A DNA stretch of 64,000 nucleotides. It comes from an uncultured bacterium. Lineage in GTDB: Bacteria; Patescibacteriota; Minisyncoccia; Phycocordibacterales; GWA1-40-21. Within the stretch, counting starts at the first letter, position 1, and each line of letters starts with the position of its first letter. The translations under genes were made by a program, and so were the position numbers. Under the pieces are notes generated by a model, which saw nothing but the letters and a program-made list of their open reading frames with translations, was not told where the DNA came from and searched no databases. Shown here in pieces: positions 12,546 through 30,964 of this stretch. The stretch spans positions 9,669 to 73,668 of the forward strand of contig CAWJAN010000001.1 of NCBI GenBank assembly GCA_963840885.1, in the 5' to 3' direction.

Positions 12546-12546
12546 C

Positions 12547-12740: not shown

Positions 12741-14328
12741 ATGGCGCGTCGAGCATTCTCGCTGGGACTCCTTACCGCGGTCGCGATGGTCGCGCTGCTC
12801 ACGTTCGGAGCGCCGGCCGCCGACGCCCAGAAGAAGGGCGGCGTGCTCCGGGTCGGCAACCTCGGCGAGCCGCCCGACGCTCGACGCGCACTGGACCACC
12901 GCCAACATCACCGAGATCCTCGACCAACCACATCTACGAGGGGCTCTACACCCTCGACCGCGACAACAGGCCGATCCCGATGCTGGCCGAGGGCCTGCCC
13001 CCGGTCAGCCGGGACGGCCTCACGCTACACCATCAAGCTCCGGCAGGGCGTGACGTTCCACAACGGCAAGGAGATGACCTCCGAGGACGTGGTCGCCTCG
13101 CTGACGCGCTGGGGCAAGCAGTCGATCTACGGCAAGGCGCTCTTCGCCCAGGTCGCCGACCTCCGCGGGCGTGGACAAGTACACGGTCGAGCTGAAGCTC
13201 AAGGAGCCGTCGCCCATCGTGCTGATGGCGCTGGCGGTGCCCAACAACTTCGGCGCGATCTATCCCAAGGAGATCGCCGAGAAGTTCCCGCCCCAGGTGA
13301 AGATCACCGAGTACGTCGGGCACCGGTCCGCTTCCGGCTCGCGGAGTGGAAGCCCGACCAGTACATCCGGATGGTGCGCTTCGACGACTACAAGCCGCGC
13401 AGCGAGAAGCCCGAACGGCTACGGCGGCGGCAAGACCGCGTGGCTACGTCGACGAGATCCGCTGGATCCCGACGCCCGAGGTGGCCACCCGGGTGGCCGC
13501 AGCTGGAGACCGGGCGAGCTCGACTTCGCCGACGACCTGACGCTCGACTCCTACGACCGCCTGCGGCCGAGCCCGGTCGCGCGGCCCCTGGTCGCCAAGC
13601 CGTACTTCTGGCCCATGGCCGTCTTCAACAAGAAGGAAGGCCTGATGACGAACCAGAAGCTGCGCCAGGCCTGGCAGGCGGCCCTCGACATCGAGCCGAT
13701 CATGAAGAGCGTGGCCGGCGGCAAGCCGGAGTTCTACCGCCTCGACAGCAGCCTCGATCCCCGGCGAGATCGCCGGAGTGGCACACCAAGATCGCCGGGC
13801 CTGCCCGTGGAACGAGCACAACGCGGCCAAGGCCAAGCGCTGCTGCAGGAGGCCGGGCTACAAGGGCGAGCCGATCCGCTTCATGACCACCCAGGAGTAC
13901 AAGTGGATGTACGACTTCGCGCTGGTCACCAAGCAGCAGCTGGAGGACGCGGGCTTCGTCGATCGACCTCCAGGTGCTGGACTGGGCCACGCTGGTGAAG
14001 CGGCGCAACAACCCGAAGGAGTACGACGTCTTCACCACCGGCATCGGGCCCTTCTACGACCCGACGCCAGCCCTCTTCCTGAGCTGCTCCTGGCCGGGCT
14101 GGACGTGCGACGAGGACATCCAGAAGCTGCAGACCGGAGCTGGCCCAGGAGACCGATCCCAAGAAGCGGCAGGCGCTGTGGGAGCAGCAGACCAGGCTGT
14201 TCTACGAGAAGGTCCCGGTGATCCGGTACGGCGACCTCTTCGGCCTCCGCGCGGTCCGCAAGACCGTGAAGGGCTTCAACGAGCGGACGGAGCGGCCGCG
14301 CTTCTACAACGTGTGGCTGGAGAAATAA
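12741..14328 (+). CDS. ABC transporter substrate-binding protein, family 5 (peptide/nickel, DppA/OppA-like), disrupted by frameshifts
   Basis: Signal peptide MARRAFSLGLLTAVAMVALLTFGAPAADAQ. SBP_bac_5 segments recur in all three + frames up to a TAA near 14326. Confidence 0.6.
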
Positions 14329-14358
14329 CTCGACGCGCGGGCGGCCTGACCCGCCCGC

Positions 14359-15307
14359 ATGCTTTCGTATCTCGTCCGGCGCCTCCTCGCCGTCATCCCG
14401 GTGATGGCGGTGGTGGTGACGGTCGTGTTCCTGCTCATCCACCTGATCCCGGGCGATCCGGTGAGCGTGATGCTGGGGCCCGACGCGACCCCGAGCCAGA
14501 TCGACGCGACGCGCAAGGCGATCGGGCTCGACCGGCCGCTGCACGAGCAGCTCGCTGGGCTTCTACGCCCGGGTGCTGCGCGGCGACCTCGGCCAGTCCT
14601 ACTTCCTGGACCGGCCGGTGACCACCGCGATCCTGGGAGCGGGCCGAGCCCACTCTGGTGCTGATGGCGTGCGCCCTGCTCGTGGCGGTGGCGATCGGCG
14701 TGCCGTCCGGGGTGGTGGCGGCGGCCCACCGCGGCTCGATCTGGGATCGCGTGCTCATGATCGGCTCGCTGCTCGGCGTCTGCGTGCCCGGCTTCTGGCT
14801 GAGCCTCAACTTCATCTACCTCTTCGCGGTGCGTCTCGGGCTGGCTGCCCGCCGCGGGCTACGCCTCGCTCTTCACCGAGCCGGTGCGCCGCGCTGCGCT
14901 ACATGGTGCTGCCCGCGGTCTCGCTCGGCTTCAACCAGTCGGCGCTGATCGCGCGCATCAGCCGCTCCTGCATGCTGGAGGCCCTCCAGCAGGACTACGT
15001 GCGCACCGCGCGGGCCAAGGGGCTGCCCCAGCGCGCGGTCACCTACGTGCACGCCTTCCGCAACGCGCTGGTGCCGGTGGTGACCGTGATCGGGGTGACC
15101 ACCGCGGTGCTCATCGGCGGCGCGGTGGTCACCGAGATCGTCTTCAACATCCCCGGGCCTCGGGCGCCTCGTGATCTCGGCCATCCTGCGCCGCGACTAC
15201 CCGGTGGTGCAGGGGGTGGTGCTGGTGACGGCCGCGACCTACGTGCTGATCAACCTGGTGGTGGACCTGCTGTACGCCTTCATCGATCCGCGCATCCGCT
15301 ATGACTG
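14359..15307 (+). CDS. ABC transporter permease (DppB/OppB-like), frameshifted
   Basis: MLSYLVRRLLAVIPVMAVVVTVVFLLIHLIPGDPV N-terminus; the EAA-loop region and the C-terminal FIDPRIRYD lie in other frames. Confidence 0.6.
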
Positions 15308-16152
15308 AGCGCAGCCGAGCGGCAGCGCTGGATCGCGCCGGCTGGCCGGAACGGGGGCGTGGTGACCGGGGCCGCCCTCCTGCTCGTGCTGGTGGCGGCC
15401 GCGCTGTTCGCCGACGTGCTCTCCACCTACAACCCCACCCGGCTCGGTCCCGGCCAACCGGCTCAAGCCGCCGAGCGCGCAGCACTACCTCGGCACCGAC
15501 GAGTTCGGCCGCGACGTCTACAGCCTGGTGCTGCACGGCAGCCGGGTGTCGCTGCTGGTCGGGCTCACCACCATGCTGCTGCACCTCGGCGGGCGGCGTC
15601 GTCATCGGGCTCACCGCCGGCTACTCGCGGCGGCTCGACGTGCCGGTGATGCGGTGCATGGACGGCCTGATGGCCTTCCCGGCCATCCTGCTCGCGATCG
15701 CGCTGATGGCCGCGCGCGGGCCCGGGGTCTGGAACGTGATCCTGGCGCTCTCGGTCGTCTACATGCCGCGCACCGCGATGCTCATCCGCAGCACGGTGCT
15801 GAGCCTGCGCGAGCTCGACTACATCCAGGCCGCGCGCGCGCTGGGCCGGCGCGACGGCGCGATCGCGCTGCGCCACATCCTGCCGAACTGCGTGGGCCCG
15901 CTGCTCGTGCAGGGCAGCTTCGTGTTCGCCTACGCGATCCTGGCCGAGGCGATCCTGGGCTTCCTCGGCGTCGGCGTGCCGCCCTACGTGCCGTCGTGGG
16001 GCAACGTGATCGCGAGCGGCAAGAACGTCATCCGCGAGGCGTTCTGGGTGAGCCTCTTCCCCGGCTTGGCCTTGACGATCGCCGGGCTCAGCCTCAATCT
16101 GCTCGGCGACGGTCTGCGGGACGTGCTGGACCCGCGGCTCCGAGTGCGCTAG
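15301..16152 (+). CDS. ABC transporter permease (DppC/OppC-like)
   Basis: 283 aa ORF. The conserved DppC N-terminal segment lies in a neighbouring frame (15359..15649), implying an N-terminal frameshift. Confidence 0.6.
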   Translation: MTERSRAAALDRAGWPERGRGDRGRPPARAGGGRAVRRRALHLQPHPARSRPTGSSRRARSTTSAPTSSAATSTAWCCTAAGCRCWSGSPPCCCTSAGGVVIGLTAGYSRRLDVPVMRCMDGLMAFPAILLAIALMAARGPGVWNVILALSVVYMPRTAMLIRSTVLSLRELDYIQAARALGRRDGAIALRHILPNCVGPLLVQGSFVFAYAILAEAILGFLGVGVPPYVPSWGNVIASGKNVIREAFWVSLFPGLALTIAGLSLNLLGDGLRDVLDPRLRVR

Positions 16153-16658
16153 AAGAGGAGGGCCCGGGCGATTCCTTCACCTCGTGACCGAGCGCGGCGA
16201 GACGCCGCGCCAGGAGGCCGGATGATGAGAGCGATGGACTCGAGACAGCCGTCCCTGCTGGAGGGGCCCGCGCCCCGGCGCGCGCCACGGTCCCGGCCGA
16301 GCCGGGGGCTGCTCGCGCGGCTCGCCCCGCGGCGCGGTGGAGATCGTCCGCCACGCCAACGGCCCGGTGGAGGTGAAGGTGTCCGGGCTGATCGACAGCG
16401 CGGAGCGACGGATCCGCCAGTGGCAGGGCGTGGCGGCCATCCTCTTCATCCTCATGGTGGTGGGCGCCGCGCTCGCGGTGGTGGTGGTGGCGCTGCGCTG
16501 GGACTTCGAGCGGGGCCGCGCGGTGCGGGTGCTCCAGGCCGACCTCGAGATCGCCCGGGCGCGCGAGCGCTGCTGGGAAGCGCTGGCTCGCCCCCGGCGG
16601 GCGCGACGCGGGCGCGCTGCATCACGCCCCGCGCGTACGCGCGACGGGACCACCAGCC

Positions 16659-16893
16659 GATGGAGGCGTGCACGCCGACGACCGGGGTGGAGACGCTGCG
16701 CTGGCCGGCAGGAGAGCAAGATGCTCTTCCACCCGAGCCCGCGACCGCCCAACGCGGGCTGGTGCGCTACGAGCCGGGCTCGCATCATCCCTTCCACAAG
16801 CACGACTTCGCCCAGGTCTGGTACATCCTCGAGGGCGAGTTCCAGATCGGCGACCGCTGCACCCGGGGCGCTGCTCTCCCCCGACCCGCCTGA
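16659..16893 (+). CDS. small cupin-domain protein
   Basis: YEPGSHHPFHKHDFAQVWYILEGEFQIGD matches the cupin G(X)5HXH..E motif. Confidence 0.4.
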
Positions 16894-16981
16894 GCGTCGG
16901 CGCGTCCACGACGGGCGGCCCGCTGCCTTCAACATGAGGCCCGGGCCGCCACGTCGATCGCCGGCCCCCTCACCCTGCCCG

Positions 16982-16998
16982 TCTCCCCGTGGGGGAGA
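16982..16998. terminator. GC-rich palindrome between convergent genes (candidate bidirectional terminator)
   Basis: TCTCCCC-GTG-GGGGAGA between the cupin ORF end and the molybdopterin oxidoreductase stop at 17007. Confidence 0.35.
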
Positions 16999-17006
16999 GG
17001 GAGAGA

Positions 17007-19052
17007 TTAGAGGGCGGCGACCTCGACGCGGCAGTCGTTGTAGCAGGCGCCCCCGCAGATGTCCGCGTGGTGCCCCGGAGCCAGCGCCGAGACGGTCTGC
17101 CCGTTGTCGCTGGTCCGCATCCACGCGCCCTTCAGGCTGCACACCACGCCGGGCCGGATCGCGTCGGTGACCTGGAGCGGCAGGTGCACCTCGCCCAGCT
17201 CGTTCCACACCCGCACCACGCATGCCGTCGCGCAGGCCGCGGGCCTTGCGCGTCGTCCGGATGCATCTCGAGCGGCGGCGTCACGTCGCCCGGCTTGAGC
17301 CCGCCGAACGTGGAGGTGATGCGCTCGTCCGACGCGGGCGAGATGAGGACGAGCGGGAACGGCGTCTCGTAGGCGCGGAAGGTCGGCAGGCGCGCTGCCG
17401 TACTTCTGCTCGAGGTAGCCGGACGCCAGCTCGATCTTGCCGGACGGCGTCTTCGGGAAGACGTTGCTTGAAGAGGATGGCGGGCTCGCCGTTCGACCGT
17501 CATCGCGGTGGCGCGGTCGGTGGGCAGCCGGCTCGGCGCGCACGCCGCCCAGGCGCGGGTCCGCGCCGTCCACCGCGTCGTCGATGAGCTGCGGCGTCGC
17601 TGGCGGTGAAGGCGGGGTCGGTGAAGCCGAAGCGCGCGGCGAGCCGCCGGAAGATCTCGGTGTTGGGCAGCGACTCGCCCTGCGGCGGGATCACCGGCTC
17701 GGCGCGCTGCAGCCAGTGCTGGCCGTAGGCCGCGTAGATGTCGTCGTACTCGAAGTGGCTGCGAGGCGGGCAGCACCACGTCGGCGTAGGCGAGGCTGTC
17801 GGTCATCACCACGTCCGAGCCCACCGTGAAGAGATCCTCGCGCGCGAGCCCGCGCCGCATCCGGTTCTGGTCCGGGTGCACGACCAGCGGGTTGTGGTTG
17901 TAGATGAAGAGCGCCTTGATCGGCGGGGACAGGGTCGGATCGAGGAGGTGCTGGCCCATGTCCACGATGTTGAGCGTGCGGGTGCCCGGCGGCAGCAGGT
18001 CCGGCCGCTGCAGCTCGGCCGGCGTCTTGGGGAACACGAAGCCCGCGCCGTTGACGAGCCCGCCGCCCGGCACCCCGAACTTCCCGGCCAGCGCGGGCAG
18101 GGCGAAGATCGCGCGGATGCCGCTGCCGCCGTTCTGGTTGCGCTCGAGCCCGTTGCCCACGCTGATCGCGGCGGGCGAGAGCGTGTGGTACCACTCGGCG
18201 AGCTGCCGGATGTCGGCCTCGGGCACCCCGCAGATGCGCGAGGCGTCCGCCACCGAGTAGCGCGCGCGCGCCGGCCATGAACTCCTCGAAGCCCTCCACG
18301 TGGCGCTCGATGAAGGCGCGGTCGAGCGCGCCGCGCCGCTCGAGCTCCGCCGCGACGGCCCACGCCAGCACCACGTCGGTGCCGGGCTGGAGCGCGAGGT
18401 GCAGATCCGCCTGCTCGCGCGATCTTGATGCGCTTGGGGTCGACGACCACCACCTTGGCCCCGTCCCGCCGCGCCGCGTTGATGCAGCGGCGTGAGGTGC
18501 AGGTTCGACCAGGTGACGTTGTTGCCCCAGGCGATGATGAGCTTGCGAGTGCCGCACCTGCTCGGGCGCGATGCCCGGGCGCGGTCCCGAAGGTGCCGAG
18601 CCACGCCTGGGTGCGGATGCCGCCGCAGAGCGGCGAGCGATCGAGCAGCGAGGCGCCCAGCTTGTGGAAGAAGCGCAGGTCCATCGAGGCGTAGGCGAGC
18701 ATGCCGTGCGGCCCCGCGTAGTTGAGCGGCAGCGACGGCCTGCGGGCCGTGCGCGGCGATCACCGCGGTCACGCGGTCGTGGATGATGTCGAGCGCCTCG
18801 TCCCAGCGACGCGCGCGCGAACCGGCCCTCGCCCTTGGCCCCGACCCGCCGGAGCGGGGTGCGGAGCCGCCCGGGCCCGTGCACCCAGTCCGGGTACGAG
18901 CCGGCCACCTTGGTGCAGATGACGCCGGCGGTGTAGGGGTTGGCCCGGGAGCCGCGGATCTTCACGATCTTCGCGTCCTCCACGGTGACGGTCAGGCTGC
19001 AGGTGTCGGGGCAGTCCAGCGGACAGACGCTCGCGTGCTCGGTGGTCGCCAT
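17007..19052 (-). CDS. molybdopterin (bis-MGD) oxidoreductase, formate dehydrogenase/nitrate reductase superfamily, disrupted by frameshifts
   Basis: N-terminal 4Fe-4S motif CPLDCPDTCSL and GVICTKVAG. Molybdopterin domains lie in two further minus frames. C-terminus ends at the stop at 17007. Confidence 0.6.
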
Positions 19053-19171
19053 GGCCCCGTATCGTAAGGCAATCGGAGGCGTCTCCGCCACCCGGGTAAA
19101 CAGAGCGCGGCCCGCGCTCGTCTATTGCGGCAGAGGGGTGGCCGCCATGACCCCTCGTGAGGAGACCCAAC

Positions 19172-19560
19172 ATGAAAAAGCTGATCGCGCTGGTTCTGGC
19201 CGTCGCGGTCTTTGCTCCCACGCTGGCCTTCGCGGGCGCGTCGACGGACGCGGCCCTCGGGCTCGGCGCCTTCGCGGTGTTCAATCAGATCCTGGGCGGG
19301 GTCGGCATCTTCCACCGCGGCCCGGTGGTGGCGCCCGCGCCCGTGGTCGTCGCTCGGCCCGCGCCGGTCTACGTGCCCGCTCCGGTGGTGGCGCCACCCC
19401 GCGGGTGATCGCGCCGCGGGTGGTCGCTCGGCCCTACCCGGTCTACGTGCCCGCGCCGCGTCCCGTGGTGGTCCACGAGCGGCCGGTGTTCTGCCCGCCC
19501 GGCCACGCCCGGAAGGGCTGGTGCTATCCCGCGCCGGTGCGCCCGGCCTGGCGCTACTGA
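19172..19560 (+). CDS. small secreted Pro/Val-rich tandem-repeat protein (one frameshift)
   Basis: Signal peptide MKKLIALVLAVAVFAPTLAFA, then repeats VVARPAPVYVPAP; C-terminus PGHARKGWCYPAPVRPAWRY in a second frame. Confidence 0.45.
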
Positions 19561-19615
19561 TCGCGTCCGTCGCTCACGTCCGGCGCTGACCGGCCCGCTG
19601 ATCGGATGACTCCCG

Positions 19616-19646
19616 CCCTCTCCCCCCGAGACCCGGGGGGAGAGGG
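19616..19646 (+). terminator. GC-rich stem-loop (12 bp stem, 7 nt loop), candidate terminator
   Basis: CCCTCTCCCCCC-GAGACCC-GGGGGGAGAGGG immediately after the repeat-protein gene and before chrA. Confidence 0.45.
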
Positions 19647-19663
19647 TGCTACACTCCAGGGGC

Positions 19664-20830
19664 CATGTCGCTCGCGCGCTCGCTCGAGCTCGACGAGTGA
19701 GACGCGTCTCCCTCCTCCGGCTGATCGCGGTCTTCGCCTGGACCGGCCTCTCGAGCCTGGGCGGCGGCCGCAGCGCCTACTTCCACGACGCGCTGGTGCG
19801 GCGGCGCGGCTGGATCCGCCACGACGAGTTCGTCCAGGACTTCACGCTGAGCCAGGTGCTGCCCGGGCCCGAACTTCAGCAACCTCGCGGTCGTCCTCGG
19901 CTACCGGCTCGCCGGCTTCGCGGGCGGCGTGTGGGGGCTGCTCGCGATCGTGCTGCCGGGCGCGGTCATCCTCCTGGGCGCGAGCGCGCTCTACGCGCAG
20001 GGCGCCTTCGGGAGCGGCGCCAGTCTCCTGCATGCGCGGGCTGAGCGCGGCGGTGGTGGGGCTCGTGCTCGTGACGTCGCTCCGCATCATGCGCGGCTCG
20101 CTGCGGGGCGGACGTGCGGTCGTGATCGCGCTGATCACCTTCGTGGCGGTCGGCCCGCTGCGCCTGCCCACCGTCGGCGTGGTGCTGCTGATGACCGCGC
20201 TGAGCCTCGGGCTGCACTGGTCGGCGCCCGCGGCGCGGCCGGTCCTCGCCGGCTCCCCCGTCCACCCCGCCACCGGAGGGCGCGTGATGGCGGACCTCGC
20301 GCTGCTCACCTGGACGTTTCTCTGGCTGAGCTTCCTCTGCGTGGGCGGCGGTCTCGGGGTCATCCCGGAGATGGAGCGGCAGGCGGTGACCATCCACCAC
20401 TGGCTCACCGCCCGCGAGTTCGTCGACGGCTACACGCTGTCGCAGCTCACCCCGGGCCCCGGCATGCTGGTCGCGGTCTTCGTGGGCCACCGGGCCCACG
20501 GCCTGCTCGGCGCGGCGCTCGCGGGGCTCGCGATGTTCGTGCCCACCTCCGTCCTGGCCATCGTGATCTCGCACCACTGGCAGCAGTGGCGCGCCCGGCC
20601 GTGGGCGCGTCGCCGCCGAGCGGGCGCTCCTGCCGGTCGGGGTCGGGCTGATGGCGGGCGGGGTCTACACGCTCGCGCGCACCGCGATCCACGACGGCGC
20701 GACCGTCGCCCTCGCGGCGGCCACCGCGCTCGTGGTGGCCACGGATCGCGTGCCGCCGGTGGTGGCGGTGCTGGCCGCGGGCACGGCTCGGCTGGCTCCT
20801 CTCGCGATAGGCGCGCCGGCGACGCTTGAC
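19664..20830 (+). CDS. chrA: chromate ion transporter ChrA (two CHR halves), disrupted by frameshifts
   Basis: First half WTGLSSLGGGRSAYFHDALVRRRGWIRHDEFVQDFTLSQVLPGP; second half FLCVGGGLGVIPEMERQAVTIHHWLTAREFVDGYTLSQLTPGPGMLV; several frame changes. Confidence 0.55.
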
Positions 20831-20901
20831 ACGCGGCTTCGTCCCGACATAAGGTCGCACCGGCTCGTCGGCGGCTCCCGCGCCCCTCGACCCGAGGAGG
20901 A

Positions 20902-21795
20902 ATGCCGTGCTCGGCTCGCGCTCCCCCGTCTCCCACGGTGTCGTCGTCGCCGCTCGCGCTCCTCGTCGTCCTCGCGGTCTCCTCCGCGGTCTCGGTGACC
21001 GCGCAGCGGCTGGCCGACGGCCAGGCGCCGAAGTTCACGGTGGATCCGTTCTGGCCGAAGCCGCTGCCCAACCGCTGGCTGCTCGGCCAGGTGGCGGGCG
21101 TGGCGGTCGACCCGCTCGACCACGTGTGGATCGTGCAGCGGCCGCGCACCCTGACCGACGACGAGAAGGGCGCCACGCTCAACCCGCCGCGCAACGAGTG
21201 CTGCGTGCCCGCGCCGCCGGTGATGGAGTTCGACAGCGAGGGCAACCTGCTCCAGGCCTGGGGCGGGCCCGGGCCGGGCTACGACTGGCCGGCCAACGAG
21301 CACGGCATCTTCGTGGACCCGTCCGGCAACGTGTGGCTGGCCGGCAACGGGGAGAAGGACGACCAGATCCTCAAGTTCAGCCGCGACGGCCGGTTCCTGA
21401 TGCAGATCGGCAAGCCGGGCTCGAGCGGCGGCGACGCCGACACCGCGCAACCTCAATCGCCCCGCCGACGTGCGGGTGGACGCGGCGGCCAACGAGCTGT
21501 ACGTGGCGGACGGCTACGCCAACCACCGGGTCATCGTGTTCGACGCGACCACCGGCGCCTACAAGCGCCACTGGGGCGCCAACGGCCGGCCCCCGGGCGA
21601 CGCGAGCGTGAAGCAGTTCCGGAACCCGGTGCACTGCGTGCGCATCGCGACCGACGGGCTCGTCTACGTCTGCGACCGGATGAACAACCGGATCCAGGTC
21701 TTCAAGAAGGACGGCACCTTCGTGAGCGAGTTCGCCCTGGCGATCTCGACGACCGGCAACGGATCGGTGTGGGACCTCGACTTCTCCCGCGACCC
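20902..21795 (+). CDS. secreted NHL-repeat beta-propeller protein, 3' truncated at the composition junction
   Basis: Signal peptide plus repeated VVFDATTG / LVYVCDRMNNRIQVF motifs. The frame runs into low-GC sequence at about 21,795 with no natural stop. Confidence 0.5.
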
Positions 21796-22596
21796 ATATT
21801 TATCGTCCTTATCGGTATTGTAAAATTCCACCCAGCCGCATCTTGCTCCCGGCCAAGGAAATTCTTTTGAGATTCCGCGCATCGCAAGCCCTGGAACGCC
21901 GTCTATCACTTGTGCAAGCTTCCTGTGCTCAACGCCGCCGTAATAAAGATTGGAATATATCTCATCCGATATGACGAATAGGTCGAATTCCCTTGCAATA
22001 TCGACGATTTGTTTCATTATTTCTATCGGAAATACGGCGCCTGTGGGATTGTCCGGATTTACGATTAAGACGGCACATATTTCAGGATGAGCTTTTATTT
22101 TTTCACGCAAATCTTTAAGGTCCGGATACCAATGGTTTTCCGGATCAAGCTTATATGTCATATGCGGCGAGCCTGCATGGGCGGCTTCGGCTGAGGAGTG
22201 AGTGGAATATGCTGGATTCGGCCCTATTACGCGCGAGCCGGGATTGAGATAATTATAAATGGTGGCGATAGCATCGCCAAGGCCGTTGAAGAATAAGATA
22301 TCGTCCGGTTTTATCTGTGCTCCGCCTTCCAGGTTTCTTTCGTATGCTATGTATTCTCTCGTATCCAGAAGTCCTTTTGTAGGCGAATAGCCGAAGCAGG
22401 AATTATCTTTCAAAACAGTGTCGGAAACTATTTTCTTTATCCAGGCCGGCACTTCCTCGCCTTTTGCCACCGGATCGCCGATATTTTCCCAGACGATTTT
22501 AACGCCGGTCTTTTCTATCTTGTTTGCAACATCCACTATCTCGCGGATTTCATAAACGAGCTCATCAGCTCCTGGATGTACTATATTATTTCGCAT
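21796..22596 (-). CDS. class I/II (PLP-dependent) aminotransferase, 3' truncated at the composition junction
   Basis: MRNNIVHPGADEL..NPDNPTGAVF..GLAMRGISKEFPWPGARCGWVEF; only about 265 aa of an expected 390 precede the junction. Confidence 0.7.
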
Positions 22597-22634
22597 TCCA
22601 CAATTCTATACAAAAATATGAAAAATAAAAGGGT

Positions 22635-23180
22635 TTAAAGGCTTTTTATGAATTCTTCGAGATGCTCTCCTACAAGCGCGGCATCGGCGCTTTCTTTTAT
22701 GTCGGCAACAGATCTTATATTGCTTGCCTGGCAAATCCATCCTCCGAAAATTTTCCTGGCTTCTTCGAAAGTTTCTTTCTTCTGACCTCCGGTATTCAGG
22801 TCTCTCGTATTCCATACCACTTTCATGTCTCTCGGTATTTTCTTGAGTTCTTCAAGATTAAGCGGCTCTATAAAGACCTTATTCAAATGGACTTTAGGAA
22901 TTCTTCCAACAACAAGAACATAATCAGCCCCGGCTTCCAGGGCCCTTTCTATTTCAGAATCCTTTTTATGTATTCCTTTGGCAAGAATAGGCTTTCTTGT
23001 CATACTCCTTGCCATCGTTATTTTGTTTAGCGAGCCGCCCCAGCGCTTGTCCGTGTGGACAGAAATCATGTCGCCGTATTTGCTGGCTATTTCAAAAAGC
23101 TCGTCCCAAGTCTTTTCCGATTTGAATCCAAACGGCGATTCTGTCTTTACCTCTGCAATGAGCTGGAATTTTCTGCTCAT
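22635..23180 (-). CDS. TrpC-like (indole-3-glycerol-phosphate synthase family) TIM-barrel protein, short form
   Basis: LIAEVKTESPFGF resembles the IGPS IAEIKRASPSKG motif; GADYVLVVGRI. Confidence 0.4.
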   Translation of the reverse strand: MSRKFQLIAEVKTESPFGFKSEKTWDELFEIASKYGDMISVHTDKRWGGSLNKITMARSMTRKPILAKGIHKKDSEIERALEAGADYVLVVGRIPKVHLNKVFIEPLNLEELKKIPRDMKVVWNTRDLNTGGQKKETFEEARKIFGGWICQASNIRSVADIKESADAALVGEHLEEFIKSL

Positions 23181-24010
23181 TTTTTTATTTCAACAAGGCT
23201 TCCGCTTGTATATTTAAGGTATTTCGAGACTCCGAGAGACGGCGCAGTTGTCATCGGTTCGCCTGGATTTCTATCCGCATAATTTGCGATTATTTCCCCG
23301 TTTTTGATTTCCGTCTGCTGGGGCGCAATGCGGTCGCCGAGGAGCACGGCATTCGTTCCGCTATATCCGCCCGATGTTTTTATTGCGGCAACGATATAAA
23401 AGAATGTTCCGCTTCCGCCTGTATCTTGAGTGAGAATGAAAGCAGTATCATCCACGCCGTCGCCATTTATATCTCCGTATGCTTCATTGCCGAAATATTT
23501 TGTGGTGATTTTTGAAGCCGAGCCTGGAGCCGCTTCCGTTTCTGAGACTCCGCTTACAAGGGTTATCTGTTCGCCATTTATGGTATAAGTGCCATTTTTT
23601 GGACTATCCGATATATGCTGGAATTTTACCGCACAGTTCATATAATTTTTCTCAGCGCCGTTTTCAAGCACTAGCGCACTGTCGCCTTTGCTCCAGAAAA
23701 CAAAAGATTCATCTTCATTCGTATATCGCACGCCGTCTGCGGAAATTGTCTGGCGAAGAGTCATATTCCTTTCATCGCTTAATTTTATATTCGCTATTCC
23801 GCCAGGAGTTGGCGGCATACCCGGAGTAGTTGATGCCGCTTCGCCTTCATATAATTGTGCCGTTATGGTTTTTCCACCATCGCAGGAATAGATGAGCGAA
23901 TTCAAAAGACTTTCTTTTATAATTTTTTGCTGCTCTGATTTTAATACGAAAATAGCGGTAATTATGGCAATAATGATCGCAATAATTATTGATAACTTGT
24001 ATTTTCTCAT
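23177..24010 (-). CDS. membrane-anchored extracellular protein of unknown function
   Basis: N-terminal TM MRKYKLSIIIAIIIAIITAIFVL, then Gly/Thr-rich beta-type domains. Confidence 0.5.
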   Translation of the reverse strand: MRKYKLSIIIAIIIAIITAIFVLKSEQQKIIKESLLNSLIYSCDGGKTITAQLYEGEAASTTPGMPPTPGGIANIKLSDERNMTLRQTISADGVRYTNEDESFVFWSKGDSALVLENGAEKNYMNCAVKFQHISDSPKNGTYTINGEQITLVSGVSETEAAPGSASKITTKYFGNEAYGDINGDGVDDTAFILTQDTGGSGTFFYIVAAIKTSGGYSGTNAVLLGDRIAPQQTEIKNGEIIANYADRNPGEPMTTAPSLGVSKYLKYTSGSLVEIKK

Positions 24011-24504
24011 TTCTTTATTATATCTGAAATATCCCTGAGTATTTCTCCGGCATGGTTTACCGGATCGACATTGTCGTATGCTTTCAGGATGATTCCGTCC
24101 TTGCCTATTATGTATGAGATCCTTTTTGTCCCGGGGTTACCGAAAATTTCTTTTGAAGCCTCGTAGTCGTTTATAACTTTTCTGTCAGAGTCCGATAAAA
24201 GCGTAAATGGAAGATTGTATTTGTCGGCAAATTTCTTATGGCTTTCCACGCTGTCTTTGCTGATGCCGAAAACTTTCACGCACTGCTTTTGAAATCCGCT
24301 GTACATATCGCGTATAGTGCAGGCTTCTTTCGTGCATCCCGGAGTATCGTCTTTCGGATAAAAATAAACCAAAACAAGCTCGCCTTTGTGAGATGAAAGA
24401 GAATGTTCTTTCCCGTTCTGGTCTTTAAGTTTGAAATCCGGCGCTTTTGTTCCTACTTTTAACATGATTGTATTATACCAGAGATTACTTTTTTCTTTCC
24501 CCAC
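24007..24504 (-). CDS. bcp: peroxiredoxin (Bcp-type thiol peroxidase, AhpC/TSA family)
   Basis: LKVGTKAPDFKLKDQNGKEHSL..YFYPKDDTPGCTKEAC; probable true start is the internal Met at 24465. Confidence 0.8.
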   Translation of the reverse strand: MGKEKSNLWYNTIMLKVGTKAPDFKLKDQNGKEHSLSSHKGELVLVYFYPKDDTPGCTKEACTIRDMYSGFQKQCVKVFGISKDSVESHKKFADKYNLPFTLLSDSDRKVINDYEASKEIFGNPGTKRISYIIGKDGIILKAYDNVDPVNHAGEILRDISDIIKK

Positions 24505-25645
24505 TCTTTTTCGGCTTGTAGTATTTCTTTCCTTTCAGCTTCTCCGGCAGCAAATCTTCCTTAGGATAGCGTTCATATCCTTTTCCATAGTCCAGGTTTT
24601 TCATAAGCTTCGTCACGGGATTGCGTATCATAAGCGGTATGGGCAAGTTGCCGTATTTCTTGGCGTCCTCGAGCGCTTCCATATATGCTTCATAAGAAGC
24701 TTTTGTTTTTGGCGCTAGAGAAAGATAGACGACACCATGAGCGAGGTTGATTCCGCATTCTGGCAGGCCGATGGTTTCTACCGCTTTGAAGACTTCATTG
24801 GCAACGACTAGCGCCGTAGGCTGTGCCATTCCTATATCTTCAGAAGCGAAAATCACCATTCTTCTGGCGATGAATTTCGGATCTTCGCCGGATTCAATCA
24901 TCCTTGCAAGATAATACAGCGCCGCATCCGGCTGCGATGCGCGCATGCTTTTTATAAATGCCGAAATAGTATTGTAATGCTCATCGCTTTTCTTGTCGTA
25001 GCGCAGGAATTTAGACTGCAAGGTTTTTTTCAGGTTTTCAATAGTTATTTCCTTATACAAGCTCGCCGTATTTTCTATCATCGCTATCGCCTGCCTTGCA
25101 TCGCCATTTGCCATTTGCACAAGCCAGTCGCTCGCATCTTTTTTGAGCTTGTATCCTGTGCGTTTTATTATTTCCCTTATCTCATCGTCAGAAAGCTCTT
25201 CCATGACAAAAACCCTGGCGCGGGAAAGAAGCGCAGGAATGATTTCAAAGCTCGGGTTTTCTGTCGTGGCGCCGATGAGGACGAGCCTGCCGCTTTCTAC
25301 AAATGGCAAAAGAAAATCCTGCTGAGCCTTGTTGAAGCGGTGGATTTCATCTAAGAAAAGAACTGTCGGCCCGAGCAATCCTCCAGCGCGAGTATCCACG
25401 ATTCTCCTGATATCATCCTTCCCTGCGGAAACTGCAGAAAGCTCAAAATAGCTTGCGTCTATAGCTTTAGAATATATCCTTGCAAAAGTAGTCTTGCCGA
25501 TTCCCGGCGGTCCCCAAAGTATGAATGAAAAGACATGCTTTTTATCTATCGCTTCGCGAAGCGGCTTGCCTTCGCCCACAAGATGCTTCTGCCCGATGAA
25601 TTCATCAAGTTTCTGCGGCCTTATTTTATGCGCGAGTGGTTCCAT
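24485..25645 (-). CDS. rarA: replication-associated recombination protein A (AAA+ ATPase)
   Basis: [45 protein letters not shown]. Confidence 0.85.
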
Positions 25646-25736
25646 GAGTTAAGTATTACATTTTCATAAAAAATGAAAATATTGACAAAAAGCAGATAAA
25701 AAATGCCAGGAATTTCCTGGCGTCCAAAATAAATTC

Positions 25737-26195
25737 TTAAGAAGTCAAAAGATTGCCGCGTAGGGTTTTTGTGCTGAAATAAAGCGCTAGTACCGAGAGT
25801 ATGAAAAGAAGCACGTTTGCCAGGAAGAATAAGTCTGTGTAATCGCCTGCATAAGATGCTATAGTCTGATATCCGAAAACTACGGAAGCCGCTATTGAGA
25901 TGACAAAATCTATTATTATTATCACTGCCGATTTTGGATTGGTAAGCCCTGCGAAAATAGTGAATCCGACGACGGCGATAATGGAAAGGAGCGACTGCAA
26001 GAGCAATTGGTATTTGAAAAACGGCGTCGTCACTATCATTACGATAGCTATGAGCAGATAGATAAACCTGACTTCATCACCGTAATAGTGCCTTGAGGCC
26101 ACCTCCATATTATTCTTGTTTACGATATTTCTTATTTTATTTTCTGTTTCCGGCTTCATATTTTTAATTATACGATAAAAACCTATCAGATACAA
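25737..26195 (-). CDS. hypothetical integral membrane protein
   Basis: 152 aa, four predicted TM helices, no recognised domain. Confidence 0.45.
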   Translation of the reverse strand: MYLIGFYRIIKNMKPETENKIRNIVNKNNMEVASRHYYGDEVRFIYLLIAIVMIVTTPFFKYQLLLQSLLSIIAVVGFTIFAGLTNPKSAVIIIIDFVISIAASVVFGYQTIASYAGDYTDLFFLANVLLFILSVLALYFSTKTLRGNLLTS

Positions 26196-28229
26196 TTAAA
26201 CCGTTAAACTCAATTCTTGAGCGAAAAATGCAAGCATAAGAGCCTGACTTTCCACTATTTTTGTAATAGGTTTTCCTGAACCATGTCCAGCATCCATTTC
26301 AGTAAAAATTAATACCTTATTATTTTTATTTACCGATTGTAATATTGCTGTCATTTTTCGGGCATGAAGCGGATCAACTCTTGTATCTTTTTCCGCAGTA
26401 GTAAAAAGAAAATTCGGATATTCAATTCCTTGTTTTACATTATGATACGGGCTCCATTTTAAGATATTTTCTAATTCCTCTTTTATTTCCGGATTTCCAT
26501 ATTCGTGAATCCAGCGAATGGCAATTCCAAACTTTGGGAATCTCACCATGTCAGTCAATGGAACCCGGGAACAAACAGCTTTAAATAAATCTGGACGCTG
26601 AATAGCAACCACAGAGACAAGTAATCCGCCATTACTTCCGCCCAAGATGCCTAATTGGCCCGCATTTGTATATTTTTTAGATACCAAATATTCAGCAGCT
26701 GCAATAAAATCATCAAAAGAGTTTTGCTTATGTTTTTTCATTCCTCCTTTATGCCATGATTCTCCAAATTCATTGCCTCCGCGTATATTTGCAATCGCAA
26801 AAATACCTTCTCTTTCCATCCACGGTATCCAACTTCTTGTAAATACGGGCGTTTCATTATTACCAAATCCACCGTATCCATATAAAATGGTCGGATTTTT
26901 TCCATTAAGCACAACATTTTTCTTATGTATGATAAACACTGGTACTTTCGTTCCATCCTTTGACACGCACCATTCCTGTTTTACTTCATAATCATCGGGA
27001 TTTATGGGATTATCAGTTTTTCGGTTTATTGAATACTTTTTTGCCTTCGGATCGTAATAATAAAGAATTTTAGGAAATGTAAAAGAATCTACTCCATAAA
27101 AAAATTCCTCTTCTTCTCTATTTGTAGACATCCCGGCAAGACTCGAGTATTGCGGAAGCGGAATTTTTCCGGCTTCTTTGCCTTGATAATCAAATATAAC
27201 GACTTCGGAGCAAGCATTTACTAGATATTCAATAATAATTTGATTTTTTGTAACATGGTACGACTCGAGGGATACATTCCTTTCAGGAATAAACTCCTTC
27301 CAATCATCTATTGGTTTATAGAGATCATTAAATGTCGTCCAAAGAATTCTTCCGTTGTTTGCCTTATAGTTTGTATATAGGAGAACTTTATCGGCCAGAA
27401 AGGATATTGAAGATTTTGCTTTTACTCCTACAATAAAATCTTTTGTTTCTCTTGTTTTTGTATCATAAATATACAGGTCATTCTCAGTCCATGTCTGAGA
27501 AGCATAAATAGACAAATACCTTCCATCGATAGAAATAGTAAGACCAATCATGTCGTCTTTAGGCCTTCCTTCGCCAAAAATAAGTTCATCGGCATCTGGA
27601 TTATCTCCTAATTTATGAAAATAAACTTTGGAATGCAAATGCTCTTCATTTTTAGGCACCGTTCCTGGTCGTGGATTTCTCACATAAAAAAACCCGGAAT
27701 CATCAGGCAGCCATGTTATTGCCGCAAGCCTGCAATGAACAATCTCTTCCTTTAAATTTTCATTCGAATCGACATCCTTGATATATATTGTTGCCATTTC
27801 ATTACCGCCCTCTGAAATACCGTATGCAACGTATTTACCGCTACGGGATTTGTTCCAATAATCTATGGAAACCGTATTACCCTCTCTTTTGCCATTTGGA
27901 TCAAAAATTGTTACAGGAGAACCATTGAATCCATTTTTCATATAAAGAACAAATTGGTCTTGGTCCTGCTTACGTTCCATATAGAAATATCGTCCATTAG
28001 TAAAAGTCGGATTGGAAAAATTAGCCGCTTTAAAATTTTTAGTCAGTTCATTGGAGAATGTTTCGAAAACATTATTTTTTAGGACAGAATCAGTATATTC
28101 ATTTTCATTTTTTATCCAATTTTTGACTTCAGGATCATTTGCATTTTCAAGCCAGCGATATGGATCATATACCTTTATACCTTGTATTTCATCTACAATC
28201 TTTTCTTTTTTAATCTTAGAAAAATCCAT
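26196..28229 (-). CDS. prolyl oligopeptidase (S9A serine peptidase)
   Basis: VYDPYRWLEN N-terminal propeller motif; C-terminal GGSNGGLL catalytic Ser; 677 aa. Confidence 0.85.
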   Translation of the reverse strand: MDFSKIKKEKIVDEIQGIKVYDPYRWLENANDPEVKNWIKNENEYTDSVLKNNVFETFSNELTKNFKAANFSNPTFTNGRYFYMERKQDQDQFVLYMKNGFNGSPVTIFDPNGKREGNTVSIDYWNKSRSGKYVAYGISEGGNEMATIYIKDVDSNENLKEEIVHCRLAAITWLPDDSGFFYVRNPRPGTVPKNEEHLHSKVYFHKLGDNPDADELIFGEGRPKDDMIGLTISIDGRYLSIYASQTWTENDLYIYDTKTRETKDFIVGVKAKSSISFLADKVLLYTNYKANNGRILWTTFNDLYKPIDDWKEFIPERNVSLESYHVTKNQIIIEYLVNACSEVVIFDYQGKEAGKIPLPQYSSLAGMSTNREEEEFFYGVDSFTFPKILYYYDPKAKKYSINRKTDNPINPDDYEVKQEWCVSKDGTKVPVFIIHKKNVVLNGKNPTILYGYGGFGNNETPVFTRSWIPWMEREGIFAIANIRGGNEFGESWHKGGMKKHKQNSFDDFIAAAEYLVSKKYTNAGQLGILGGSNGGLLVSVVAIQRPDLFKAVCSRVPLTDMVRFPKFGIAIRWIHEYGNPEIKEELENILKWSPYHNVKQGIEYPNFLFTTAEKDTRVDPLHARKMTAILQSVNKNNKVLIFTEMDAGHGSGKPITKIVESQALMLAFFAQELSLTV

Positions 28230-28579
28230 TTTGAGTGATTTGTTTTATTTAAAAAAATGGGGGATCTTAAGTTTCCCCCATTTTTGCTGTGCCAATGGCC
28301 TGAGAGGCCTATTGGTCAGGTATTTCCGGATTGTTCCCTTGTTCGGTTGCGGCATCGTCATCGATGTCAGTATCCGGTTCATCTGGGCCGAGATAAGGCA
28401 TAAACGTTTACCCCCTTTCATAGAATGAACTGCATACCAATATATTAACAAGTATAATAGATTAATCAAAATAATGTATTTTATTGACTAACTCTATAAA
28501 TAATGTTATTACATTATCAGTTGAACATTAAATACTAAAGAGTTTGAAATGCTACTTACAATAAGTTCGGGAGGATAGA

Positions 28580-29146
28580 ATGACCTTATCAAAGAGGAAT
28601 GACTGGAAGAGGCGCCTTGTCTCTTTCAGAAATCATATGATTTTCATCTTTCAGCCGTTTTGCATCGCTCTTTTGATTACGGCTGCCTGGTACCAGTTTT
28701 ATCTGCGCGGATGGAATTTTTCATCGGACGATGAGCCTGTACTGATAGGAGCGATTATCGGTACCTTGGCAATAGCTTTTTCCATCACGGCTTCAACTGT
28801 TTTCGAGTCAACATGGAAAAAGTATCAGACTGTGGTGATATGCGTGCTGAAGGGAGACCGCAATACGTTTCTGTATTACAGGGATGAGCGTCTGCCCATC
28901 ATTATTCATATCCTGCTTCTGACCTTTACCACGATGATTATCATTATGGTCGGAGGAATCCATTACAAGCATCTTGTAAGCGGAATCGTGTCTGTATTTT
29001 CAATCTCATTCGTTCTTATCCTATACTTTATCGTTATCGTCGAGCTGCAAAACCCTGCGAAGGCTTTGTGGTTTGCTGAAAGGATTCCGAAGGAGTGGCT
29101 CGAAGTCGATATCGATAAGCATTTCAAACTTGATAGGAGGAAATAA
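28580..29146 (+). CDS. hypothetical membrane protein
   Basis: 188 aa, multiple TM helices. Confidence 0.45.
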   Translation: MTLSKRNDWKRRLVSFRNHMIFIFQPFCIALLITAAWYQFYLRGWNFSSDDEPVLIGAIIGTLAIAFSITASTVFESTWKKYQTVVICVLKGDRNTFLYYRDERLPIIIHILLLTFTTMIIIMVGGIHYKHLVSGIVSVFSISFVLILYFIVIVELQNPAKALWFAERIPKEWLEVDIDKHFKLDRRK

Positions 29147-29185
29147 ACAGCCTCAAAAAAAGCCCGGCGCATATCGCCCGGGCTT

Positions 29186-29722
29186 TTATTTTTTCTTTAT
29201 AACCCTTTTCTTATATTCGGAAAACATCATGATTGTTTTTGTGTCCTTAATTCTATCCATATAGCCAAGGCCGTTTAAATGATCTATCTCATGCTGGAAA
29301 ATTATTGCCCAAAAGCCGGATGCTTTTTCAACAACTTTCTTCCCGTTTTCATTATAATATTCAACGGTAATATCTTTTGCTCTAGGTACCATAGCCCTTA
29401 TCCCTCTTAAACTTAGGCATCCTTCCCAGCCATTAATTTTATTTTTTGAGTATTTCAGGATTTTTGGATTCACAACCACAATCGGACCTTTACGCTTTAA
29501 TTTCGGTCTGTTCACCGACGGGCGCATTTCCATTACAGCAAGGCTTAATGGCTGGCCAATCTGCGGAGCGGCCAAGCCGACGCCGTTATCGCGCCTCATC
29601 GTATAGAGCATATTTTTAATAAGCTTTTTGCCTTTAGCGGATTTAAGAAATTTTAGCGGAACTTTTTTAGCTTTGGAACGCAAAATCGGATTGCCGAATA
29701 GTGTACGAGGTAAAATTTTCAT
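29186..29722 (-). CDS. def: peptide deformylase (copy 1)
   Basis: Motifs GVGLAAPQIG, EGCLS, HEIDHLNG. Confidence 0.85.
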   Translation of the reverse strand: MKILPRTLFGNPILRSKAKKVPLKFLKSAKGKKLIKNMLYTMRRDNGVGLAAPQIGQPLSLAVMEMRPSVNRPKLKRKGPIVVVNPKILKYSKNKINGWEGCLSLRGIRAMVPRAKDITVEYYNENGKKVVEKASGFWAIIFQHEIDHLNGLGYMDRIKDTKTIMMFSEYKKRVIKKK

Positions 29723-29804
29723 GAGCTGATTATATCAGATTAAAATGTCAAAGAAAAAGCCCCGCGTGCTACGCCGCGGGGCTTGTATTTTTTAATGACT
29801 CTTA

Positions 29805-30209
29805 CTATAGAGTCAAAAGAATTGCTGAAGCGATAGCGCAAACGAAGCCGATTCCCTGTTTGAGAGTTAGGCCGTCAATATACGCTTTATACACGGCAGA
29901 GATGGCGATCTCCAAGACAAATGTGATAACAATCAAAAGTCCCACATTTGCCGCTGTCGATTTTGCAAGCATTCCATTAAAAAGCAGTGTTCCAACCCCT
30001 CCGAGAATGCTCGCAATCACCACGAACCACCAGTTCACGCCGGCTGTGTTTCCGATATTACCAATGGTAAATGGATACACAACCACAAGCATAATGCCGA
30101 TGAAGAAAAGCGACGACGCATTGCCGCCAAGGCCGCTTTTGTTCATGATAAGCGGCCAAATACCCCAACAGATGCCAGTCAAAACGGATTTCACTATCAG
30201 TTCTTGCAT
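29805..30209 (-). CDS. small EamA/DMT-like 4-TM membrane protein
   Basis: 134 aa, four TM helices. Confidence 0.45.
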   Translation of the reverse strand: MQELIVKSVLTGICWGIWPLIMNKSGLGGNASSLFFIGIMLVVVYPFTIGNIGNTAGVNWWFVVIASILGGVGTLLFNGMLAKSTAANVGLLIVITFVLEIAISAVYKAYIDGLTLKQGIGFVCAIASAILLTL

Positions 30210-30444: not shown

Positions 30445-30453
30445 AATCATCAC

Positions 30454-30900: not shown

Positions 30901-30933
30901 ACAACTAAATTATATCAGACTTAAAAAGTATTT

Positions 30934-30960: not shown

Positions 30961-30964
30961 TAAA

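What the first reader, a model, noticed from the sequence alone, without database searches (positions are those of the whole stretch)
21780..21810. Abrupt GC switch with genes truncated on both sides: probable chimeric join, not horizontal transfer
GC content drops from about 70% to about 35% within a few bases near 21,795. The NHL-repeat gene on the left has no stop. The aminotransferase on the right (minus strand) lacks roughly its C-terminal third; its apparent 3' end is read through into high-GC sequence by chance. Codon usage, start/RBS signals and gene density also differ completely. A natural insertion would not cut both flanking genes at the same nucleotide.
Basis: seen in the sequence. 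Interest (0 to 1): 0.6.

Follow-up and report, generated by a model that had tools for sequence, protein, structure and literature searches.

The report
Chimeric contig joining two unrelated bacteria
At base 21,795 the sequence jumps from a high-GC soil bacterium (Methylomirabilota) to a low-GC Patescibacteria genome, cutting a gene on each side, which is best explained as an assembly mis-join in a public 248-kb contig, not as biology.

Summary

- **Breakpoint.** The maximum-likelihood GC change point is base 21,795, with 70.4% GC to the left and 38.0% to the right.
- **Left side.** Six independent Methylomirabilota-type contigs align at 90-97.6% nucleotide identity and in the same gene order up to exactly 21,795. 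All of them continue with the rest of a 373-aa NHL-repeat gene and a MurB-like gene. The window copy stops at residue 296.
- **Right side.** This is Patescibacteria (Paceibacterota). Its aminotransferase keeps 267 of about 434 residues, and homology starts at 21,795/21,796.
- **No sign of insertion.** There is no repeat, tRNA or mobile element at the join. The missing gene halves are not in the window.
- **New evidence.** The left part carries 58 single-base insertions in 9.2 kb against 6 single-base deletions, which break every gene. Once the insertions are removed there are no stop codons and dN/dS is mostly 0.1-0.2. These are therefore consensus errors, not gene decay.
- **Contrast.** The right part is clean and is reproduced by an independent assembly.
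- **Public record.** The join sits in a deposited 247,900-bp contig. Its fused 310-aa ORF is already in protein databases.

Read mapping could not be done. Verdict: artefact, low interest.

The parts
1..21795 (.). High-GC (70.4%) segment from a Methylomirabilota-type genome, present as a low-accuracy consensus with many 1-nt insertions
   Evidence: Window 12637-21795 matches L001 and L086-L090 in gene order at 90-97.6% nt identity. The best NHL hit is named Methylomirabilota. There are 58 one-base insertions relative to L088. The GC3 phase changes every few hundred bases across 2.4-21.8 kb. Tetranucleotide usage is homogeneous within the segment and unrelated to the right side.
20902..21795 (+). 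NHL-repeat beta-propeller gene, truncated at residue 296 of 373, with a 1-nt insertion frameshift at 21445
   Evidence: Pfam NHL and DUF5128 match. Homologues are 373 aa. The alignment ends at FSRDP. The insertion was mapped.
21795..21796 (.). Breakpoint: a blunt join with no spacer, adaptor or shared repeat
   Evidence: ML change point. Alignments from both sides abut at 21795. The three-way view shows relatives continuing GGCCCAGAGC... where the window has ATATTTATCG.... No repeats were found at the join.
21796..22596 (-). Class I/II aminotransferase, N-terminal 267 of about 434 residues only
   Evidence: Pfam PF00155 covers profile positions 16-231 of 361. Homologues are 433-435 aa. The alignment breaks after K266/Y267. 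Relatives L002-L005 carry the full gene followed by a His_Phos_1 gene.
21664..22596 (-). Artefactual 310-aa fused ORF: the aminotransferase N-terminus plus 43 codons of antisense NHL sequence
   Evidence: ORF list. It is identical to public protein P0001, which sits on a 247,900-bp contig from NCBI/ENA.
21796..64000 (.). Low-GC (38%) Patescibacteria (Paceibacterota) genome segment with intact, compact genes
   Evidence: MgsA best hits at 76-81% are Paceibacteria, Patescibacteria and Nomurabacteria MAGs. DnaX (345 aa, full length) has named hits to Candidatus Paceibacterota. ORFs tile 86% of the segment. Pfam matches are full length.
22462..31531 (.). Stretch reproduced by an independent assembly (Logan, run ERR12036782, 9,069-bp contig)
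   Evidence: All gene boundaries map with the constant offset 31531-x. The 181-aa and 677-aa products are exact matches (with window ORFs). That contig ends 667 bp before the join, so it neither supports nor refutes it.

Best explanation
The window comes from a chimeric (mis-joined) contig in a public metagenome assembly.

**The join.** A fragment of at least 21.8 kb from a Methylomirabilota genome is joined end to end at base 21795/21796 to a Paceibacterota (Patescibacteria) genome. The break falls inside a gene on each side.

**Most likely mechanism (inferred, not shown).** This looks like a long-read assembly in which one or a few chimeric reads, or an assembler graph error, attached a poorly covered foreign sequence to a well-covered Patescibacteria contig. 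That would explain why the high-GC part is an unpolished, insertion-ridden consensus while the low-GC part is clean.

**What is shown.** The breakpoint, the two taxonomic origins, the truncation of both genes at one nucleotide, the error-profile discontinuity, and the presence of the join in a deposited 247.9-kb contig.

**What is inferred.** That the join does not exist in any cell, and the exact technical cause.
For: 1. The GC change point is at 21795, with 70.4% against 38.0% GC. Tetranucleotide usage and GC3 flip at the same place.
2. Six independent contigs (NCBI MAG GCA_035708385.1 and five JGI metagenome contigs) align to the window at 90-97.6% nt identity and in the same gene order. 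All alignments stop exactly at 21795. Each contig continues with the rest of the NHL gene, then MurB-like, MR_MLE and DUF1499 genes.
3. Aminotransferase relatives align from 21795 onwards and are all 433-435 aa.
4. The missing C-terminal parts of both genes, and the genes that follow them in relatives, are absent from the window.
5. There is no direct or inverted repeat, tRNA, integrase or transposase at the join. The flanking genes are ordinary housekeeping genes, and those on the left side keep the gene order seen in relatives.
6. Across 12637-21795 the window has 58 one-base insertions against 6 one-base deletions relative to L088, about one per 158 bp. In 16973-21795 the count is 27 insertions to 0 deletions. 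The same excess of insertions appears against L001, L086 and L087. With the insertions removed, 2,356 codons contain no stop, proteins are 84-97.5% identical to L001 (seven of nine genes at least 93%), and dN/dS is 0.10-0.21 in six of nine genes and at most 0.46. These are consensus errors, not decay.
7. The right side shows no such damage. The aminotransferase, MgsA, DnaX, MurB, CofD and other products match relatives or Pfam profiles at full length, and 9 kb are reproduced exactly by an independent assembly.
8. Products from both sides, and the fused ORF itself, are recorded on one 247,900-bp NCBI/ENA contig. The join is therefore in the deposited record and was not created when the window was cut.
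9. Inter-phylum chimeric contigs, recognisable by sudden GC and taxonomy shifts, are a documented product of long-read metagenome assemblers (bioRxiv 10.1101/2025.04.22.649783).
Against: - No reads could be mapped, so the absence of spanning reads and a coverage step are not shown.
- The difference in error rate could in principle depend on GC content or sequence motif rather than coverage. There is a mild GCGC enrichment at insertion sites, 13 observed against 4.7 expected.
- The sequencing platform and assembler are unknown.
- The left end of the high-GC block lies outside the window, so an island bounded on both sides cannot be formally excluded.
- No independent contig of the same Patescibacteria strain shows how the aminotransferase really continues. 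The closest complete homologue is 84% identical, and the Logan contig stops 667 bp short of the join.
Confidence: 0.93

Rival explanations
1. The join is an artefact made after assembly: two unrelated contigs were concatenated or scaffolded without an N spacer, for example during binning, curation or submission. It would not be a chimeric read or an assembler graph error.
For: The join is perfectly blunt, with no overlap, adaptor or filler sequence, and the window contains no N. A contig end inside a gene is normal for both partners. The independent Logan contig of the right-hand organism also ends inside this aminotransferase.
Against: Scaffolders normally insert Ns. A long Patescibacteria contig joined to an insertion-ridden sequence fits a read-level chimera at the end of a long-read contig at least as well. 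The two cannot be separated without the reads or the assembly graph.
Confidence: 0.04
2. The join is real. A Patescibacteria cell recently integrated at least 21.8 kb of Methylomirabilota DNA by illegitimate recombination, disrupting its aminotransferase gene.
For: The two sequences are contiguous in a deposited 247.9-kb contig. Patescibacteria live attached to other bacteria, so uptake of foreign DNA is conceivable (own knowledge, not tested).
Against: The foreign block is completely unameliorated, with GC3 of 0.97. It is up to 97.6% nt identical to, and in the same gene order as, independent Methylomirabilota-type contigs. It ends in the middle of a gene, with no repeat, tRNA or mobile-element hallmark. 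The other half of the aminotransferase is not in the window. Consensus quality changes at the join, which is not expected for one molecule at one depth. The junction 36-mer is absent from 185,579 species-representative genomes and from the JGI metagenome contigs.
Confidence: 0.02
3. The frameshifts on the left are real. The high-GC block would then be a decaying, pseudogenised acquired region rather than badly sequenced DNA.
For: Every gene between 12.6 and 21.8 kb is broken, including 15 frameshifts in the 2-kb molybdopterin oxidoreductase gene.
Against: The changes are almost all +1 insertions, 58 against 6 one-base deletions and 27 to 0 in the best-aligned 4.8 kb. That is the opposite of the deletion bias of bacterial pseudogenes (established knowledge, Mira, Ochman and Moran 2001, cited from memory). 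After the insertions are removed there are no stop codons in 2,356 codons, and dN/dS is 0.10-0.21 in six of nine genes.
Confidence: 0.01

Closest known systems
Inter-phylum chimeric contigs from long-read metagenome assemblers (Trigodet et al., bioRxiv 10.1101/2025.04.22.649783; read)
   Same: A sudden shift in GC content and gene-level taxonomy at one point inside a long contig that joins organisms of different phyla. Indel errors that corrupt ORFs are described in the same assemblies.
   Different: That paper diagnoses chimeras by 100% read clipping and coverage steps, and neither could be examined here. The platform and assembler of this contig are unknown.
Chimeric or contaminated metagenome-assembled genomes, as detected by tools such as GUNC or CheckM (own knowledge, not tested here)
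   Same: Genes of two unrelated lineages appear in one genome record, and mislabelled or fused proteins spread into databases. P0001 and P0244 are already in the protein collection.
   Different: Those tools mostly flag whole contigs binned wrongly. Here the mixture lies inside a single contig, with a base-resolved breakpoint.
Genomic island or horizontally transferred region
   Same: A block of atypical GC content and codon usage next to native genes.
   Different: There is no tRNA or attachment-repeat boundary and no integrase or transposase. Both boundary genes are cut with their other halves missing. The block consists of housekeeping genes in the same order as, and near-identical to, another phylum's chromosome, and sequence quality changes at the boundary.

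Membership tests
Chimeric (mis-joined) assembly contig | Abrupt change of base and oligonucleotide composition at a single point | tested here: met
   The ML change point is 21795, with 70.4% against 38.0% GC. GC-normalised tetranucleotide correlation flips at the join.
Chimeric (mis-joined) assembly contig | Gene-level taxonomy switches between unrelated lineages at that point | tested here: met
   The left side is Methylomirabilota. The right side is Patescibacteria/Paceibacterota.
Chimeric (mis-joined) assembly contig | Each side continues differently in independent assemblies of the same or closely related organisms | tested here: met
   For the left side, six contigs at 90-97.6% nt identity run through the breakpoint into the rest of the NHL gene and a MurB-like gene. 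For the right side this is shown only with relatives 81-84% identical at the protein level. No same-strain contig crosses the point.
Chimeric (mis-joined) assembly contig | Read clipping at the breakpoint, no spanning reads, and a step in coverage | not testable with these tools
   No reads were available. The only indirect proxy is the change in consensus error rate at the join (against 5, 53).
Genomic island / horizontal transfer insertion | Boundary at a tRNA gene or flanked by direct repeats (attachment or target-site duplication) | tested here: not met
   The only tRNAs are at 40850 and 52145. There are no meaningful repeats around 20800-22800.
Genomic island / horizontal transfer insertion | Mobility genes (integrase, transposase, conjugation) at or near the boundary | tested here: not met
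   The genes next to the join are ABC transporter, Mo-oxidoreductase, chromate transporter and NHL genes on the left, and aminotransferase, IGPS-like, MliC, peroxiredoxin and MgsA genes on the right. The first 12 kb of the window were not annotated in detail.
Genomic island / horizontal transfer insertion | The interrupted target gene resumes on the far side of the insert | tested here: inconclusive
   The aminotransferase C-terminus is not found anywhere in the 64-kb window. However, the far end of the high-GC block lies outside the window.
Pseudogenised (decaying) region | Deletion-biased indels, premature stop codons, and relaxed selection (dN/dS near 1) | tested here: not met
   There are 58 one-base insertions against 6 one-base deletions. 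No stops occur in 2,356 codons, and dN/dS is 0.10-0.21 in six of nine genes and at most 0.46.

The most novel reading that the evidence does not exclude
The junction is real: a Paceibacterota (CPR) cell carries at least 21.8 kb of freshly acquired, unameliorated chromosomal DNA from a Methylomirabilota bacterium, perhaps its host, inserted by illegitimate recombination into an aminotransferase gene. The frameshifts would then be GC-dependent sequencing errors. This would be a direct snapshot of large-scale DNA capture between phyla by an episymbiont.
Probability: 0.02. Interest if true: 0.8.

Novelty: not a real feature. Interest (0 to 1): 0.08.

Why it matters
It matters for data hygiene, not for biology.

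- **Chimeric public record.** A 247.9-kb public contig is chimeric between two phyla.
- **Polluted protein databases.** Its fused 310-aa "aminotransferase" (P0001) and its frameshifted high-GC ORFs (for example P0244) are already in protein databases.
- **Risk of false conclusions.** Anyone using this contig for Patescibacteria metabolism, horizontal-transfer inference or binning statistics would be misled. Molybdopterin oxidoreductase, chromate transporter and peptide ABC transporter genes would wrongly be assigned to a CPR genome.
- **Fix.** The contig should be split at 21795/21796 and the high-GC part removed or flagged.
- **A read-free diagnostic.** A discontinuity in consensus error rate, here 1-nt insertions measured against close relatives, can point to a chimeric join when reads are unavailable.

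Tried and rejected
- **Exact search for the junction.** The 36-mer spanning the join was searched in GTDB species-representative genomes and in JGI metagenome contigs. Neither gave a hit, so there is no independent support. The source record itself is not in those sets.
- **Degenerate search for the same strain.** A back-translated pattern for the last 12 aminotransferase residues before the join gave no hit in JGI metagenomes. No same-strain contig was found that would show the true continuation.
- **Source contig look-up.** A look-up by the fused protein P0001 returned nothing on record. Cluster look-ups gave the contig length and the NCBI/ENA sources, but no accession or organism name.
- **Gene order around MgsA.** In 80 related genomes the aminotransferase and IGPS-like genes are not near MgsA. 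These relatives therefore do not show what should follow the aminotransferase. L002-L005, at 84% identity, show a His_Phos_1 gene downstream.
- **Other junctions in the window.**
  - The GC dip at 1.2-2.0 kb is gradual and holds a small nucleotidyltransferase-like ORF, so it is not a second join.
  - The 31.5-40.8 kb low-GC block is a plausible native island next to a tRNA.
- **Error-site motif.** Only a mild GCGC enrichment was found at insertion sites. It is not enough to name a sequencing platform or a methylation motif.
- **Literature search.** A search for the run accession ERR12036782 gave no paper.

Full report

Yes. A 1-kb GC profile shows 66-75% GC up to about 21.8 kb and 27-46% afterwards. 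A two-segment likelihood scan places the change point at base 21795, both for the whole window and for 19-25 kb. GC is 70.4% on the left and 38.0% on the right. The sequence reads ...GACTTCTCCCGCGACCC|ATATTTATCGTCCTTATCGG....

The first 4 kb on the right are 43-44% GC rather than 35%, which is a small correction to the finding. GC3 is 0.97-0.98 in the NHL gene and 0.45-0.50 in the genes just to the right. Tetranucleotide usage normalised for base composition was compared with reference segments. The 4 kb left of the join correlate with the left reference (r = 0.66) and not with the right one (0.17). The 4 kb right of the join do the reverse (0.24 against 0.80).

**2. Both genes are cut at the same nucleotide.**

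The left gene (20902-21795, + strand) is an NHL-repeat beta-propeller (Pfam NHL and DUF5128).
- Its homologues are almost all 360-373 aa.
- The alignment is continuous up to ...WDLDFSRDP, which is residue 296 of 373. Homologues then go on AQSYLYVADGENNH... for 77 more residues, while the window reads YLSSLSVL and stops.

The right gene (22596->21796, - strand) is a class I/II aminotransferase. It matches Pfam profile positions 16-231 of 361.
- All 119 listed non-self homologues but one are 432-438 aa.
- Homology holds through ...FYNTDKDDKY (residue 267) and then breaks.
- About 167 residues (38%) are therefore missing.
- The ORF runs on by chance through 43 codons of antisense NHL sequence to a stop at 21664-21666.

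blastn alignments from relatives of the left side end at window base 21795, and those from relatives of the right side start at 21795. A three-way view shows the Methylomirabilota contigs continuing GGCCCAGAGCTACCTC... where the window switches to the antisense aminotransferase. No base at the join is left unaccounted for, so there is no adaptor, spacer or shared repeat.

**3. What each half is.**

*Left.* The best NHL hit, at 94% identity, is named Methylomirabilota bacterium, and other cluster members carry the same name. Contig DASSSN010000303.1 of MAG GCA_035708385.1 (L001) and five JGI metagenome contigs (L086-L090) share this gene order:
- peptide ABC transporter genes;
- a 676-aa molybdopterin oxidoreductase;
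- a small ORF;
- two chromate-transporter genes;
- the NHL gene.

In every one of them the NHL gene is complete. It is followed by a MurB-like gene and then MR_MLE, DUF1499, NIPSNAP and FMN_dh genes. These contigs align to window 12637-21795 at 90-97.6% nucleotide identity.

*Right.* MgsA (386 aa) has its best matches, at 76-81%, in Paceibacteria, Patescibacteria and Nomurabacteria MAGs. The short DnaX (345 aa) matches 342-345-aa proteins, and three of the four organism-named hits are Candidatus Paceibacterota. The segment is compact: ORFs tile 86% of it, and it holds two tRNAs. It carries MurB, Dus, peptide deformylase, formyltransferase, CofD and glycosyltransferase genes.

**4. Is the join in the source record?**

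Yes. The 310-aa read-through ORF is identical to public protein P0001, recorded from NCBI and ENA on one 247,900-bp contig. The frameshifted chromate-transporter ORF from the left (P0244) and six ORFs from the right sit on a contig of that same length. The join is therefore not an effect of how the window was cut. It was also not made by concatenating separate contigs when the window was built.

**5. A second, independent line of evidence: consensus quality changes at the join.**

The GC3 phase on the left switches every few hundred bases.

Aligned to L088, window 12637-21795 has 58 one-base insertions and 6 one-base deletions, about one insertion per 158 bp. In the best-aligned 4.8 kb (16973-21795) the count is 27 insertions to 0 deletions, and it is the same against L086 and L087. 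Against L001 there are 42 insertions to 5 deletions outside one poorly aligned stretch, and 15 of the insertions lie in the 2-kb molybdopterin oxidoreductase gene.
- The inserted base is G or C in 35 of 42 cases.
- It usually does not extend a homopolymer (9 of 42 do).
- GCGC is only mildly enriched at the sites, 13 observed against 4.7 expected.

The window was then projected onto the reading frames of L001, which ignores the insertions:
- 2,356 codons contain no stop;
- the proteins are 84-97.5% identical to L001, with seven of nine genes at least 93%;
- dN/dS is 0.10-0.21 in six of nine genes, with a maximum of 0.46.

These genes have evolved under purifying selection. An excess of insertions is also the opposite of the deletion bias seen in real bacterial pseudogenes (established knowledge). 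The frameshifts are therefore consensus errors.

The right part shows no such damage:
- The aminotransferase fragment aligns without a frameshift and keeps the invariant residues.
- MgsA, DnaX, MurB, CofD, CMAS and the helicase domain of a Schlafen-like protein match relatives or Pfam profiles essentially end to end.
- A 9,069-bp contig from the independent Logan assembly of run ERR12036782 matches window 22462-31531, with every gene boundary at the constant offset 31531-x.
- That contig's 181-aa and 677-aa products are exact matches (window ORFs).

A clean, reproducible sequence abutting an unpolished one suggests two populations of very different read depth. That is what a mis-join predicts.

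**6. Tests of the natural alternative.**

- No repeats of note lie within 1 kb of the join.
- No tRNA lies nearer than 19 kb.
- The adjacent genes are housekeeping genes, not mobility genes.
- The missing C-terminal parts of both genes, and their expected downstream neighbours, are not found anywhere in the window by tblastn or blastn.
- The junction 36-mer is absent from 185,579 species-representative genomes and from the JGI metagenome contigs.

A real insertion cannot be formally excluded, because the far end of the high-GC block lies outside the window and no reads were available. It would, however, need all of the following at once:
- illegitimate recombination in the middle of a gene;
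- no amelioration of the foreign DNA at all;
- a GC-dependent error rate that happens to change at the same base.

**7. Mechanism and comparison with known cases.**

Chimeric contigs that join different phyla are documented for metaFlye, metaMDBG and hifiasm-meta. The same paper reports unsupported indels that corrupt ORFs. It notes that such chimeras can be recognised by sudden shifts in GC content, coverage and gene-level taxonomy (bioRxiv 10.1101/2025.04.22.649783).

The blunt join with no shared k-mer argues against a short-read de Bruijn graph mis-join. The insertion-ridden left part argues for long-read data at low depth.

The exact cause cannot be determined from the sequence. It could be a chimeric read, an assembler graph error, or concatenation after assembly. 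The first two are my inference.

**8. Verdict.**

This is an assembly artefact of a known kind, so biological interest is low. The practical value is that the contig should be split at 21795/21796, and that fused and frameshifted products from it are already in protein databases.

I put the probability that the join is an artefact of any kind at about 0.97, and of the specific assembly-level chimera at 0.93. The remaining possibility, real capture of DNA from another phylum by a CPR bacterium, I put at about 0.02.

Noticed in passing
window 12637-21795 (probably all of 1-21795): The high-GC part carries about one single-base insertion per 158 bp relative to close relatives, 58 insertions against 6 deletions, mostly G or C. 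Every gene is frameshifted, including 15 frameshifts in the molybdopterin oxidoreductase at about 17.1-19.1 kb. The broken ORFs, such as the 407-aa P0244, are in public protein databases.
   Followed up: yes
window 31500-40850: A block of 27-34% GC has tetranucleotide usage unlike the rest of the Patescibacteria segment (r = 0.1-0.35). It ends beside tRNA-Gln (40850-40921). It encodes a Schlafen-like helicase (32258-34120), a MazG-like protein, a bPH_2 protein, a weak HEPN-like protein, a SEC-C-motif protein and several ORFs with no family. This looks like a native genomic or defence island. The independent Logan contig ends exactly at its edge (31531), which suggests strain variation there.
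   Followed up: partly
window 1200-2000: A gradual GC dip to 50-56% inside the high-GC part holds a small ORF (1459-1764, - strand) with a borderline nucleotidyltransferase match (PF10706, E = 4e-4). It is not a second junction.
   Followed up: partly
window 22635-23180 (- strand): A 181-aa protein matches only profile positions 46-141 of 254 of indole-3-glycerol-phosphate synthase (E = 1.5e-10). It is a short IGPS-like protein of unclear role, sitting next to the aminotransferase. Its exact sequence is also present in the Logan assembly.
   Followed up: no
L091 (GCA_035644175.1, contig DASQPB010000120.1, 17,319 bp): A 71.7% GC contig carries sulfite reductase, siroheme synthase and an NHL homologue (P0238, 68% identical to the window's). 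It belongs to a public MAG labelled 'Patescibacteria group bacterium'. The label or the binning looks doubtful, so this may be another case of high-GC soil-bacterium sequence filed under Patescibacteria.
   Followed up: partly
L026, L035, L039, L047, L064 (genome-contig hits): MgsA proteins 75-77% identical to the Patescibacteria one occur in MAGs labelled Pyrinomonadaceae/Acidobacteriota, on loci of 47-56% GC. MgsA alone is therefore a weak taxonomic marker, and the DnaX search was used as a second check.
   Followed up: partly
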